Below are positions 3,061 to 46,783 of a DNA stretch of 64,000 nt, piece by piece. Origin of the DNA: Octopus vulgaris (taxonomy: Eukaryota); contig OX597820.1 in NCBI GenBank assembly GCA_951406725.2, positions 22,072,001 to 22,136,000 on the forward strand, written 5' to 3'. Both the position numbers and the translations under genes were made by a program. Position 1 is the stretch's first letter. Each line of letters opens with the position of its first letter. The notes under the pieces are model-generated. The model did not search any database. It saw nothing but the letters and a program-made list of their open reading frames with translations, and was not told the origin of the DNA.

Positions 3061-3134
3061 CGGTCACTGATGAAAAATTTCGCCTAGCAAATTATTTTAT
3101 TTGCTAAAGAAATTTAGAAACCTAGGTCTGACCG
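3061..3134 (+). ncRNA. type I hammerhead ribozyme, intact core (PLE-type)
   Basis: Stem I CGGTCA/TGACCG; core CTGATGA; stem II AAATTTC..TAGCAAAT/ATTTGCTA..GAAATTT; A-GAAA; stem III ACCTAGGT; cleavage triplet GTC. A ~150-bp tail and (TA)n follow. Confidence 0.85.
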
Positions 3135-4692
3135 GATAAAATATCAAGGTAAAAGTTTTTATTTTTCATTCCTTTTGAAGATAGCTCTTAAGATGTGGTT
3201 TTGGTCGTTTTTGACTACTTCTAGCCTGTAAAAACTGTCTTTGGAAGGCAGCTTTCTCTTGTGATTAAATGTACACTATTTTATATATATACATACATAT
3301 ATATATATATATATATATATATATATATATATATATATATATATATACATACATACATACATACATACATACATACATACATACATACATACACTTTATA
3401 TTATTTATTTGATTGGACGCCACGTATACATTTCCAAGTATATATATATATATATATATATATATATATATATATATATATTTAAGATTCCGTTGAATTA
3501 AGTACTTAAATATTCCGCACACCCAAACAATATTAATTGAATATTAAATATCAAGAATCGGTGCAGTGATGTTTGCACCTGATATTCCTGCCGTGTGTAC
3601 AGACAACGTAATCCAGCTAAGTGATGATGTCCACTTTTGATAATTCAGAATGTCCTTTCTATAAAGGTACTTTGTATAGTATTTCCGAAGTGCAGATTCC
3701 AAGGTACCCGAATAAAATATAAAAGAGTAACTAACCGAATGTGCTAAGGAAGTGGTTGTATCCTTTATGTTTGAAGTCTATGACAAGAACGGTTTCTTTC
3801 AAAGGTTGTAATCTTTTCATTAATCAATTAAAAGAGTGGCTTGAAACGGGCGTAATGAAGTGACAACAACCGGTGTTAGTTTGTTTATGTTCTCGAAAAT
3901 TAGCGGCAGACTTTAAAAAAATTAAGCATTGGGGTCGGCTTGTTCGAGTAAACCCCTTCAAGGCGATGACCTCTCCCGTACTATCAGCGTAATCCCTCAC
4001 CGCTAAATTAAGGACTAAAACAAGTATATGACAAAAGATATCAAGAACGGTTATGACTAACCTGAGTTTAAACAACACCAACTACTACTACTATTACTAC
4101 TACTACTACTACTACTATTACTAGTAGTAGTAGTAGTAGTAGTAGTAGCAGTAGTAGTATGCTACTACTGTTGCTACTAATTTACTACTACTGTTACTAC
4201 AACTGCTACTACTGCTACTTCTACTAGTATTACTACTGCTGTTGAGGCTACTACTACTACTACTACTACTACTACTACTACTACTACTACTACTACTACT
4301 ACCACTACTACAATTTGCATGTAATCCGATTTGTGTATGATTAATCGCAGTTCATGGATGGAACAATATTAATGTTTAAAGTTATTTGACTATTTTTACC
4401 AGTTGTTGAATTATTTAACAACTGAAAAAAAGATTGTCCGGTAGACACCAGGAAGTACTGAAATAAAACCAAGCAAGTACAGCATGGAAAAGACATATTA
4501 GCCTTTCCAAAGCAAACAAACAAAAATCTGCTAACTTTACTTAATCATTTATTATTTGGTGTCAAAAGTTTTCGTCACACCAACAGCAACCTGGTCACTG
4601 ACACAGTTCTATTGCAACTCAATGACCAGGTCACAGTTGGTGAGAAATGTTTTTATATCAAATAATAAATGCTTTAAGTGAAATTAACACAC

Positions 4693-5100
4693 TTATTTCT
4701 TTACTGCCCACAAATTACTAAACATAGAGGGGCAAACAAGGACAGACAACCGGCTTAAGTCGATATCGACCTCAGTGCGTAACTGGTACTTATTTAATGG
4801 ACCCTGAAAGAATGAAAGGCAAAGTCGACCTCGGCAGAATTTGATCTCAGAACGTAACGGCAGACGAAATACCTATTTCTTTACTACCCACAAGGGGCTA
4901 CACACAGAGGGAACAAACAAAGACAGACAAACGGGTTAAGTCGATAATATCGACCCCAGTGCGTAACTGGTACTTAATTTATCGACCCCGAAAGGATGAA
5001 AGGCAAAGTCGACCTTAGTGGAATTTGAACTCAGAATGGCAGACGAAATACCGCTAAGCATTTTGCCCGTCGCGTTAACGTTTCTGCCAGCTCGCCGCCT
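4693..5100 (-). mobile_element. SINE family A, two tandem units
   Basis: Same head and body as 44-626. Confidence 0.85.
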
Positions 5101-6356
5101 TAACACACTTGTCAGTGACCAGGTTGCGGTTGGTTCAATGAACATTTTGACACCAGATAACAATGTATAACATAATGTTTGTCCTTGGGGATCAACTGTT
5201 ATTTTCTATTTTTTTACTCCTAGAAAATATGAAGAATGGCGAATATTTCCTTCAGAATTTATTCAAACCCCCCAAAATCCCTTTCAATTCATAGCTATGA
5301 TATTCCCCCACTACTCCTTCTCAGGAACAGAGATGTACATAGGGACAACATGCTCAAGTGGTTAAGTTCAAGCAACTTAAAGGCGGTGCTCCAGCATGGC
5401 CACAATCAAATGATTGAAACAAGAAAAAGAGTAACTGATAAGCACATCTGTGGTATTTGGCAGAATATTTGCTATAACGATATTTCTGCTTCAGCAACTC
5501 AGCACTGAATCTATCTAAAATGTAATGGAAAATAGGTCAGTTTGAAAACATTGACGTCCAGGCCACAAAAGCAAAGTTTGAAGGGAATAGTAGTCATTTA
5601 CTTTGATTTCTAAATAGAAGCATATGGGAAATAACACTTACTGACCAGAGACAAAAACAATAACTTCTATGAAGTGTGTGTGTGCGTGTGCTCGTTCTTG
5701 AATGGCTAATGTCTATCTGCCCTTCTGTAATTGATTTAGTTTCAACACGCGATCTCAGATGAGAGAAAACTTACCAGACAAGTACGTCTTTCAAATAAGA
5801 AATAGACTTGTAATAAAGAATATTTGAAACAAGAATATCTGTTATTATAAATAAATATAATAGTATTCTCTTCAGAAATAAATATAAAAGTATTCTCTTC
5901 ACAAACTAACAGAGATTCTATGTTGTCGTACTTCATCTGCTAGCAGTAGTAGTTAAGTTTCCCTCAAATCAGAACATATTTCTTTCCCAATAACTCTCAA
6001 ACAACGTGTCCCAAATTTATCTCGTATTCTCAAGTTTTCAATTTTTTCTTTCTTTCTCTCCCTCCGTCACTCTTTCTCTCTCTCCTTCTCTCTCTCTCTC
6101 TCTCTCTCTCTCTCTCTCTCTTACACACACACACACACTTTCTTTCTCTCTATTTCCCCCTCTCTCTCTTATCCACTCATTCACCCTATCTCTCTATCTC
6201 TCTATCTATCTATCTATCTATCTATCTATCTATCTATCTATCCATCTATCTATCTATCCATCTATCTATCTATCCATCTATCTATCTATCTGTCTACCTA
6301 CTTCTGGTCACTAGTGTAGCTTTGGAAAAAACAAGATCGACAGGAGATCTACTCAC

Positions 6357-6427
6357 CTTCTCCGCTCCGTTACGCGCCAGCAGGCCCTGCTGCATTTGGC
6401 AATGTTAGTAACTGCCTTATTACCAAT
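6357..6427 (-). other. candidate 71-nt exon of a host transcript
   Basis: Unique CpG-rich segment bounded on the minus strand by ttcctccag| and AAG|gtgagt. It could read MQQGLLARNGAEK or IGNKAVTNIAKCSRACWRVTERR. No homology recognised. Confidence 0.3.
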
Positions 6428-44708: not shown

Positions 44709-45507
44709 AATGCAGACTTCTTCAACGATAACATTTTATATTGAAGAAAATAATTTCTGAATGTATAAAGGCACCACTGGCCATTATTTTGAATAACAAA
44801 AGTCAAACCACAGAGATTATTATATAATGAGAATCTATCCAATGCAACGTAGACGTGAGAGAAGTTGCTGACCTTGACATGCACAGGAACATGAACGAGG
44901 TTATGCAGTGTTGAATGCAGAGTATCTTACAGTTGTGGATTAGCTTTACTGAAACTGGAGATGTCGAACAAGCAAAACGATCTCATTGCTAATGTTCACT
45001 ATCTACTGTAATAATTTAAACTGTATTGATCGTTAAATCAACCCGGCACTAACATTCACCATCCGTTATATAGAATAACCAAAATAAGTACAACGTAGTT
45101 AAATTTGCTGTTTTATCTTATAATAGATCTTATCTCTATTCTCTTATTGTAGTTTTAACCAACTTGCAGTCCCACTACAGACTTGTTGTGCACTTAATAG
45201 TTGCATAGCAAGCAACAGGTGAACAATGCATACCTGATTATTACTAAGGCAAATAATTTGCAAACATGTTTTATGTATGTCTGTGTGCAATTATGTATGT
45301 TTGTATGTATATGTAAACATACGTAGCAGTCACAGCAACACGTCTGTTTTTTGGCATTTCTTTTTTACCTATTTCTCTGTAGATTGAAGAAAATAATGAA
45401 CGACCTTCAACCTAATTGATTTTCTGCCCTTGTTGCTGTTTCATCAGAGATGTCAAAAATACTTGACCAATCCCAGAGAATCAGTGAGCCATTCCGTTTA
45501 TATAAAC

Positions 45508-45719
45508 TCGAGGCGGTGCTGAAAAGTTCTTGGCTTTGCCTAAAAGAAAATACAGGAGGATCAATTAATTATGATTTTATTCAACATATTCCGCTCTCAG
45601 ATTCACACACTTATTGCAGCAGTACTTCAGTTTTTCTAAGACCTATAAGAGAATTCAGAAGGTTGAGCAGGCATTTCACCATATCCTTAAAGCAAGGAAC
45701 TTTTTAACCCTCCCTCATA
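45508..45719. mobile_element. mariner-type MITE
   Basis: Imperfect TIRs CGAGGCGGTGCTGAAAAGTTCTTGGCTT / AAGCAAGGAACTTTTTAACCCTCCCTCA. Confidence 0.6.
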
Positions 45720-46123
45720 AAAAACCTAGAAGTTACAGAAAACTAGTGCAAGTAATATGCATTCCATTAGCACTTAACACTTTAATTAATATCAACAGCC
45801 TGTCAACAGGAAACCCAGTCTATATAGTATCAAGGAAACGCCTCCCTATTCAAGGGCCGAGTTATTGAATTTATTGTCTTCATTCCTCATCAATGGGGTG
45901 TTATCTTCTGGGTTTCATCTCTCCTATTTCTTTCCCTCTTTTCTTCTTTCATTGATTTATTTTTTTAATTTTATTTTCTGTTAATATTGGTAAGAAGCTT
46001 GCTTCCCAACCACACGGTTGTATACACAAAAACACACACACACACACACACACACACACACACACACACACACACACACACACATATATATATATATATA
46101 TATATATATATATATATATATAT

Positions 46124-46783
46124 AAATAAGAAGCTTCCAAATAGGAAAGTGTTGTGCTAGAACACAAAAAAGGATAAATTCACGAAAGGAATGAAAATTA
46201 AAAACGTTTACCATCTCAACTATATCCCAGACCGACGGTTTCTAACTATTTCCAGCAAAAAAATATTCGCCGAAGGCAAGTTTCTTCAGTGGGACAGCCC
46301 TAATAATCCTGACATACAGACTGCTAGATCCACATGTAGATCTAACGGTTTGTAAATCCTAACTTTTCAAACCTCTGCGCAGACACAAATCATACCCGGC
46401 GACAGAGAGGATGTCGCCGGGTATGATTTGCGTCTGCGCAGAGGTTTGAAAAGTTAGGATTTACAAACCGTTAGATTACATGTGGATCTAGCAGTCTGTA
46501 CGTCAGGATTATGAAGGCTGTCCCACTGAAGAAACTTGCCTTCGGCGAATATTTTTTTGTTGGAAATAGTTAGAAACCGTCGGTCTGGGATATAGTTGAG
46601 ATGGTAAATGTTTTTAATTTTCATTCCTTTCGTGAATTTATCCCTTTTTTGTGTTCTAGCACAACGCTTTCCTATTTGGAAGCCTCTTATTTTATTTCTA
46701 TATGAATAAAATATAGTCTAATGACTAATTCGTTTTTTGTGCTAGGCCACTGGTAATGATAATTTATTATTACCCTATTTTAT
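46124..46783. mobile_element. non-coding foldback element (inverted PLE pLTR) between (TA)n tracts
   Basis: ~281-bp arms 46124-46404 and 46412-46692, 7-nt spacer, ~90-bp tail. Each arm carries a hammerhead. Confidence 0.9.
46521..46590 (+). ncRNA. type I hammerhead ribozyme, intact core (mirror copy 46225-46294 on minus strand)
   Basis: TCCCA-CTGAAGA-AACT...AGTT-A-GAAAC-CGTCG-GTC-TGGGA. Confidence 0.82.

What the first reader, a model, noticed from the sequence alone, without database searches (positions are those of the whole stretch)
3061..46590. Variant hammerhead ribozyme family: extra nucleotide before GAAA, long stem II, self-complementary stem III
Seen: three dissimilar sequences (3061-3134, 32602-32688, 46521-46590) all fold as type I hammerheads with different but complementary stem I pairs (CGGTCA/TGACCG, GCGG/CCGC, TCCCA/TGGGA) and an intact CUGANGA, GAAA and GUH triplet. 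Each has an unpaired A between stem II and GAAA, lacks a G10.1-C11.1 pair directly adjacent to the core, has a ~40-60-nt stem II region and has a palindromic stem III (ACCTAGGT, ACATATGT, ACCG-T-CGGT). Degenerate copies at 23379, 47336 and 53521 also show the extra nucleotide. Established: PLEs carry minimal hammerheads with short palindromic stem III that are thought to cleave as dimers. Inference: this is a recurrent architectural variant that strict descriptors could miss, and its recurrence across dissimilar elements argues for function. I cannot confirm it is undescribed.
Basis: partly seen in the sequence, partly recalled or inferred. Interest (0 to 1): 0.8.

Follow-up and report, generated by a model that had tools for sequence, protein, structure and literature searches.

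The report
Octopus Penelope-type hammerhead ribozyme variants
This octopus DNA holds real hammerhead (self-cutting RNA) motifs in what are likely the broken ends of Penelope-like jumping genes; they are predicted to fold and cut as pairs, and their unusual junction largely repeats one already published for the Hydra group of these elements, with only small twists not met elsewhere.

Summary
The three motifs are real and sit at the stated coordinates. Two more are inverted copies (5 hits; 0 in 300 shuffles). The DNA is Octopus vulgaris-like. Two motif pairs form head-to-head palindromes between (TA)n tracts, as truncated Penelope-like element (PLE) insertions do.

Corrections: motifs 1 and 3 are homologous, so there are two lineages, not three. 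In motifs 1 and 2 the 'extra A' faces an unpaired A, so it is an A·A mismatch at 10.1/11.1. Only motif 3 is predicted to carry an unopposed A.

The architecture is largely published. Craig 2021 File S2 shows an unpaired base before GAA plus a self-complementary stem III in 15 of 25 Hydra-clade families. In 40 Hydra-type hammerhead groups that I fetched, 19 are mismatched there. The double hammerhead is the predicted best dimer fold for all three motifs.

Not matched anywhere I looked: A·A, the unopposed A, and the 40-60-nt stem II (Hydra set 10-31 nt). No ORF is attached, so clade membership is not shown. Cleavage is untested, and Lünse 2017 could not be read. The scan had not noted this before.

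The parts
3061..3134 (+). Hammerhead motif 1: stem I 6 bp, core 3067-3073, A·A at 3074/3116, stem II region 43 nt, GAAA 3117-3120, palindromic stem III 3120-3127, predicted cut after C3128
2941..3283 (+). Truncated element end carrying motif 1, homologous to the motif-3 element (tail clearly, upstream weakly); ends at a (TA)n tract
2806..2900 (+). Separate copy of the ~90-nt terminal tail of the motif-3 family, just upstream of the motif-1 unit
   Evidence: 0 of 1000 shuffles
32602..32688 (+). Hammerhead motif 2: stem I 4 bp, core 32606-32612, A·A at 32613/32672, stem II region 60 nt, palindromic stem III 32676-32683, predicted cut after A32684
32371..32457 (-). Identical inverted copy of motif 2
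32356..32794 (.). Head-to-head palindromic insertion between (TA)n tracts; arms differ at 1 of ~153 positions; ~90-nt tail on the right arm only
46521..46590 (+). Hammerhead motif 3: stem I 5 bp, core 46526-46532, unopposed A46572, stem II region 40 nt, stem III 46576-46584 (4 bp + 1), predicted cut after C46585
46225..46294 (-). Inverted copy of motif 3 (one difference, in stem II)
46125..46783 (.). Head-to-head palindromic insertion between microsatellite tracts; ~90-nt tail on the right arm only; member of a multicopy family
23379..23441 (-). Degenerate hammerhead-like remnant (core changed; register ambiguous; 9-nt self-complementary stem III of Hydra type)
   Evidence: by eye; compared
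47336..47377 (+). Degenerate hammerhead-like remnant (two core changes, short stem II, G-C closing pair plus A); doubtful
   Evidence: by eye
53521..53568 (+). Degenerate hammerhead-like remnant (two core changes, A·G junction, short stem II, 8-nt palindromic stem III)
   Evidence: by eye

Best explanation
These are type I hammerhead motifs that likely come from the terminal repeats of 5'-truncated Penelope-like retroelements, probably of Hydra type, and are predicted to cut only when two copies pair through their self-complementary stem III. SHOWN: the motifs, the inverted pairs between (TA)n tracts, the one-sided ~90-nt tail, and a multicopy family in three organisms' runs. COMPUTED: a lone motif gains only 0.5-2.1 kcal/mol from closing stem III, whereas the double hammerhead (stems I swapped, 8-bp intermolecular stem III) is the unconstrained best fold of two copies. 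INFERRED: in the parent element, two terminal repeats in one tandem transcript form this dimer and cut after GUC/GUA, probably slowly and with help from the element's protein, trimming the element's RNA. The base before GAAA is best read as position 11.1 of a relaxed first 'pair' of stem II (U·U in most Hydra elements, A·A in motifs 1 and 2). In the motif-3 family one facing A is missing, leaving a predicted bulge. The copies in the two palindromes are likely inert, since a read-through transcript would pair each motif with its own antisense arm.
For: Motifs far above chance. Inverted 5'-truncated copies, one-sided tails and (TA)n targeting are described PLE traits, and opposite-strand hammerhead pairs 100-700 bp apart are described; they are seen here. 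Craig 2021 File S2: 15 of 25 Hydra families have an unpaired base on both sides of stem II (14 U·U, 1 U·C), and a Chara element has C·A (counted by me). My set: 89 hits in 68 of 87 Hydra-type loci, 40 groups. First/last base of stem II: U·U 17, G-C 15, G·U 3, A-U 3, C·A 1, A·C 1. The 4th stem III pair is complementary in 39 of 40 groups, although a monomer loop could not close it in the 27 groups of 8-9 nt. A model built only on those 40 finds motif 2 and its inverse as top hits (21.6 bits, E 0.0018). Dimer folds -50.2, -37.2, -38.7 against -37.8, -25.4, -30.8 kcal/mol for two monomers. Between homologous motifs 1 and 3, three stem I pairs change on both sides (alignment, read by eye). A family variant of motif 3 turns stem III into a perfect 8-nt palindrome. 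PLE hammerheads cleave weakly as dimers or with protein help.
Against: No ORF is attached to any motif, so neither PLE origin nor clade is shown directly. Flanks match none of the 90 loci then held and nothing in the Craig supplement (six motifs searched). The Hydra model scores motif 3 at only 10.4 bits (E 2.5) and does not list motif 1. A·A occurs in 0 of 40 groups, a strict 3'-only bulge in 0 of 89 hits, and stem II regions reach only 31 nt. Perreault 2011 states that U·U supports more cleavage than any other mismatch, so A·A may be slow or dead. Monomer folding z-scores are unremarkable for motifs 2 and 3 (+0.74, -0.42; motif 1 -2.36). Absence of variants in the core and stem I of the motif-3 family is not significant: 5 substituted sites in 70 nt, chance about 0.11 by my hand count. 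Stem pairing in the Hydra set was selected by my own descriptor. No cleavage or RNA-end data.
Confidence: 0.7

Rival explanations
1. The motifs are PLE hammerheads but from another clade (Neptune/Nematis-like, or Naiad with a non-canonical hammerhead), and the junction arose separately.
For: A near-complete Neptune/Nematis-like ORF (6942-9487) and a related endonuclease fragment lie in the window. Naiads also target (TA)n, and eight are marked 'half core' at 35-50-nt spacing. The long stem II and A·A are absent from the Hydra set.
Against: The 3' ends of the Octopus and Euprymna Naiad consensi do not show this motif (last ~700 nt seen). The one Neptune example in Cervera Fig. S3 is a minimal hammerhead with a 4-nt stem III. 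The Neptune-like element here ends in a different, antisense remnant without the extra base. Stem III and junction fit Hydra rows.
Confidence: 0.25
2. The fold is kept as a binding or priming signal for the element's reverse transcriptase, and cleavage is lost or negligible because of the A·A or bulged A next to G12.
For: Hammerhead mutants of an active Poseidon element did not change insertion in vitro, and no RNA-seq ends were seen at its cut site. U·U is the best tolerated mismatch. PLE hammerheads are slow.
Against: All catalytic core bases and the NUH triplet are intact in both lineages. The palindrome of stem III is kept through different central bases.
Confidence: 0.25
3. The motifs belong to short non-autonomous PLE derivatives (retrozyme-like units) mobilised in trans. 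This can hold together with the best explanation.
For: No coding trace upstream of any motif. Multicopy family. A preprint derives animal retrozymes from PLE terminal repeats.
Against: Retrozymes are tandem direct repeats with canonical loop-loop hammerheads. Here the copies are inverted pairs or single, and upstream arms of 70-150 nt are within the length of a plain 3' UTR.
Confidence: 0.2
4. Chance matches in AT-rich repetitive DNA.
For: Weak folding z-scores for two of three motifs; no Rfam hit.
Against: 0 hits in 300 shuffles against 5; 0 of 100 shuffles reach 5 pattern matches; double-hammerhead is the best dimer fold.
Confidence: 0.01

Closest known systems
Hammerheads of Hydra-clade Penelope-like elements (Craig et al. 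2021, PMC8557442, File S2; H. magnipapillata row of Cervera & de la Pena 2014 Fig. S3)
   Same: Type I, intact core, unpaired base on both sides of stem II in place of G10.1-C11.1 (15 of 25 families), 8-10-nt self-complementary stem III, (TA)n targets, inverted 5'-truncated copies.
   Different: Mismatch is A·A rather than U·U; motif 3 has a predicted unopposed A; stem II region is 40-60 nt against 10-31 nt in 40 groups; tail about 90 nt; no ORF attached.
Minimal PLE hammerheads (min-HHR; Cervera & de la Pena 2014, PMC4209133) and short-stem-III dimer hammerheads (Lunse et al. 2017, known to me only through citing reviews)
   Same: Type I, palindromic stem III, dimer cleavage, opposite-strand pairs, an unpaired base after A9.
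   Different: min-HHRs keep G10.1-C11.1 directly before GAAA, mostly with a 4-6-nt stem III and a 4-8-bp stem II. One of 56 core entries in Fig. S3 is printed AGAAA; its row could not be assigned with certainty.
Natural hammerheads with U10.1·U11.1 (Perreault et al. 2011, PMC3088659; axolotl retrozyme HHR_Amex2, PMC7229834)
   Same: Stem II starts with a mismatch.
   Different: Pyrimidine mismatch; canonical loop-loop contacts in the axolotl case; tandem repeats.
Rfam hammerhead models (release 15)
   Same: Same catalytic core by eye.
   Different: No hit in the window at E<=1 or in two 220-230-nt windows at E<=10; none in 15 Hydra loci at E<=0.5.

Membership tests
Type I hammerhead ribozyme | Core CUGANGA / GAAA / NUH around a three-way junction with open stem I | tested here: met
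Type I hammerhead ribozyme | Purine-pyrimidine pair 10.1-11.1 directly before G12 | tested here: not met
   A·A in motifs 1 and 2; A-U followed by an extra A in motif 3. Also not met in 19 of 40 Hydra groups, so it does not exclude function.
Type I hammerhead ribozyme | Self-cleavage after H17 | not testable with these tools
   Only assembled contigs were available
PLE (dimer-type) hammerhead | Stem III unstable as monomer, self-complementary, allows a double hammerhead | tested here: met
   (computed)
PLE (dimer-type) hammerhead | Located in the terminal repeat downstream of a PLE RT-EN ORF | tested here: inconclusive
   No ORF next to any motif; insertion anatomy fits PLEs
Hydra clade of PLEs | ORF with RWK, DKT, CxCx5C linker and no CCHH | not testable with these tools
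   No genome held; motifs have no ORF; a separate Hydra-type remnant lies at 35347-36395
Hydra clade of PLEs | Insertion into (TA)n | tested here: met
   shared with Neptune and Naiad, so not diagnostic
Hydra clade of PLEs | Hammerhead with 8-10-nt self-complementary stem III and relaxed 10.1/11.1 | tested here: inconclusive
   Features met by eye; the Hydra model finds motif 2 (E 0.0018), motif 3 weakly (E 2.5) and not motif 1
Naiad clade of PLEs | 3' end matching cephalopod Naiad consensi | tested here: not met
   (only the last ~700 nt of four cephalopod consensi seen; six exact motifs searched)
Non-LTR retrozyme | Tandem direct repeats of 170-400 nt, each with a hammerhead | tested here: not met
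   Copies are inverted or single

The most novel reading that the evidence does not exclude
A multicopy octopus PLE lineage uses an active hammerhead with a purine junction next to the general base G12 (A·A, and in the motif-3 family a true unopposed A between 11.1 and G12) and a 40-60-nt multi-segment stem II. Rfam and the Hydra-based model largely miss this form. If so, PLE clades now said to lack hammerheads may hide such ribozymes, and the core tolerates an insertion not met in the papers I read.
Probability: 0.2. Interest if true: 0.55.

Novelty: new variant of a known kind. Interest (0 to 1): 0.3.

Why it matters
The main design (relaxed first pair of stem II, self-complementary stem III, dimer cleavage, PLE ends) is published, so this does not open a new ribozyme family. 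It matters modestly in three ways. It shows that Rfam misses Hydra-type hammerheads, so counts in invertebrate genomes are probably too low. It offers natural test cases (A·A, unopposed A, long stem II) for how much change the junction beside G12 tolerates. The fully self-complementary stem III in 39 of 40 Hydra-type groups supports dimer action in that clade.

Tried and rejected
Whole-genome search: no genome is held, so no genome-wide count or link to an ORF.

Naiad idea (half-core at 35-50 nt): cephalopod Naiad 3' ends do not match.

Linking motif flanks to Hydra loci by BLASTN: only short chance-level hits. Translating upstream arms: no PLE protein trace.

Expression: no RNA holder listed. 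Contigs cannot show RNA ends, so says nothing on cleavage.

Viral contigs: no Hydra or Neptune relatives. The attempt to settle which Cervera Fig. S3 row carries AGAAA found nothing.

Pattern search for A-before-GAAA in five host-contaminated genomes: match counts near the reversed control overall. None of the 58 loci fetched (a subset of the matches) closed stems I and III, and a repeated hit was coding sequence.

First search with the Hydra remnant's C-terminal part found nothing.

A loop-II/3'-flank pseudoknot is possible by eye in motif 1 but is not kept in motif 3, so I rejected it.

From 103 descriptor hits in 90 loci I dropped 14 before counting (non-CUGA cores, stem III outside 8-10 nt, three non-PLE loci; listed). 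A Neptune-type locus set could not be fetched, so that clade's junctions were not sampled.
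Full report
OBSERVATION. The three motifs are present exactly as given: stem I of 6, 4 and 5 bp, intact CUGANGA, GAAA and GUH, stem II regions of 43, 60 and 40 nt ending in A, and stem III ACCTAGGT, ACATATGT, ACCGTCGGT. 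The same scan finds two more copies on the minus strand (32371-32457, 46225-46294). A descriptor allowing 0-1 free bases on each side of stem II gives 5 sites against 0 in each of 300 block-wise dinucleotide shuffles. The bare pattern gives 5 against 0.23 expected. Rfam 15 lists no hammerhead in the window or in short windows round motifs 1 and 3.

CORRECTIONS. Motifs 1 and 3 are homologous: 75% over 85 nt, tail alignment better than 1000 of 1000 shuffles, upstream weakly so (38 of 1000 as good). Motif 2 is not detectably related to motif 3. Folding shows that in motifs 1 and 2 the first base after CUGANGA is also unpaired, so the junction is an A·A mismatch at 10.1/11.1. In motif 3 the first base pairs (probability 0.71) and the last A is unopposed. 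One contig of a relative adds the facing A. An A·A register with a bulged U cannot be excluded for motif 3 in the active fold. The three 'degenerate' copies are found only by eye; they carry core changes, two have short stems II, and at least one closes with G-C.

SETTING. A PLE protein in the window is 99% identical to a predicted Octopus vulgaris protein. No assembly was available. Motifs 2 and 3 each lie in a head-to-head palindrome between microsatellite tracts, with nearly identical arms and a ~90-nt tail on one arm only. Inverted 5'-truncated copies, one-sided tails and (TA)n targets are described PLE traits, as are opposite-strand hammerhead pairs. The motif-3 element is a multicopy family: 994, 467, 767 and 137 contigs of four runs (three organisms) were laid on it. 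No variant of 5% or more falls in the core, stem I or the extra A. With 5 substituted sites in 70 nt this is not significant (about 0.11, hand count). Three variants turn G·U into Watson-Crick pairs in the distal hairpin, and a substitution and a deletion at similar depth make stem III a perfect 8-nt palindrome. No ORF is attached to any motif. The window holds a Neptune/Nematis-like ORF and a separate Hydra-clade remnant.

COMPARISON SET. Starting from that remnant I found full-length Hydra-type proteins and fetched 77 metagenome loci (the tool kept the best 80 of 484 matches) and 13 genome loci, 3 of them spurious. My descriptor gave 103 hits; 14 were dropped. The 89 left, in 68 loci, form 40 groups. 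First/last base of stem II: U·U 17, G-C 15, G·U 3, A-U 3, C·A 1, A·C 1, A·A 0. Stem II regions are 10-31 nt. Stem III is 8-10 nt by selection. The 10.1/11.1 column is unpaired in 19 of 40 while the other stem columns pair (those were selected by the descriptor). The fourth stem III pair is complementary in 39 of 40 groups. No strict 3'-only bulge occurs in 89 hits. A covariance model from these 40 ranks motif 2 and its inverse first (21.6 bits, E 0.0018), motif 3 weakly (E 2.5), and misses motif 1. Rfam misses 15 of 15 such loci tested.

MECHANISM. Computed: closing stem III in a monomer gains 0.5-2.1 kcal/mol. For two copies the unconstrained best fold is the double hammerhead in all three cases, 8-12 kcal/mol below two monomers. 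A transcript across either palindrome pairs the whole motif with its antisense arm. Inferred: two terminal repeats in a tandem transcript of the parent element form the dimer and cut after GUC/GUA, slowly and perhaps with protein help, as reported for other PLE hammerheads. The palindromic copies here are probably inert by-products. Whether A·A or a bulged A permits cleavage is untested; Perreault 2011 says U·U is the best tolerated mismatch.

LITERATURE SEEN. Cervera & de la Pena 2014 (PMC4209133): parts 1-3 of 4 of the text and parts 1-2 of 3 of the supplement as machine text with columns lost. The Hydra row shows a U after stem II, and one of 56 core entries reads AGAAA. Craig 2021 (PMC8557442): passages, the Hydra section, supplement parts 1, 2, 52, 53 of 59 and three searches. 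File S2 calls these motifs canonical, and by my count 15 of 25 Hydra families have an unpaired base before GAA; one Chara element has C·A, and two spike-moss elements have long stems II. Perreault 2011: passages and section 8. Passages only: PMC11167929, PMC7229834, PMC6765202, PMC6466107, PMC6155905, PMC6962438. Preprint 10.64898/2026.07.22.740005: part 1 of 5 and passages. Lunse 2017, the largest catalogue of short-stem-III PLE hammerheads, is not held, and figures of all papers were not visible; either may already show A·A or 3'-only junctions. Seven library searches returned no paper on octopus PLE hammerheads beyond the Craig tables, and I met no statement of an A·A junction in what I read.

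VERDICT. Real motifs that work like PLE dimer hammerheads of Hydra type (0.7); membership of the Hydra clade is not shown (about 0.5). The headline features are published. A·A, the unopposed A and the long stem II are unmatched details. New variant of a known kind; interest 0.3.

Noticed in passing
window 6942-9487 (+): Near-complete Neptune/Nematis-like PLE ORF (RT, Cys linker, GIY-YIG) with one frameshift near 8850, between (TA)n tracts; 99% identical to a predicted Octopus vulgaris protein.
   Followed up: partly
window 10195-10275 (-): Hammerhead-like remnant at the end of that element, antisense to its ORF, with a damaged core and no extra base before GAAA.
   Followed up: partly
window 33236-35250: Related Neptune-like endonuclease fragment (33862-34394) with an inverted copy of its 3' end and a 260-nt palindrome at 33236-33497; no hammerhead found in it.
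   Followed up: partly
window 35347-36395 (+): Decayed Hydra-clade ORF (41% identity to a full-length Hydra-type protein; CxCx5C-type linker); its 3' end is missing.
   Followed up: yes
window 32704-32794, 46694-46783, 2806-2900: Both palindromic insertions carry a one-sided tail of about 90 nt, longer than the 30-40-bp tail described for PLEs; a free copy of the same tail sits upstream of motif 1.
   Followed up: partly
window 46600-46625 and 46730-46768: These tail segments draw far more contigs than the hammerhead itself, and loose ends show other upstream sequences joined to them, so several families seem to share the tail.
   Followed up: no
window 91-626, 25403-25929, 37242-37777, 43552-44614 and others: Abundant 184-nt element in short tandem arrays on both strands; SINE-like by my recall, not tested.
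   Followed up: no
window 21302-21343 (-): Weak hit of the Hydra hammerhead model (15 bits, E 0.13); core start and stem II present, GAAA broken.
   Followed up: partly
L078-L087: Hydra-type eukaryotic retroelements, several with hammerheads, sit in contigs filed under bacterial genomes, likely host contamination.
   Followed up: no
L001-L087: Rfam finds no hammerhead in 15 of 15 Hydra-type loci tested although each has a clear motif; alignment A5 and model R1 could seed a family.
   Followed up: partly
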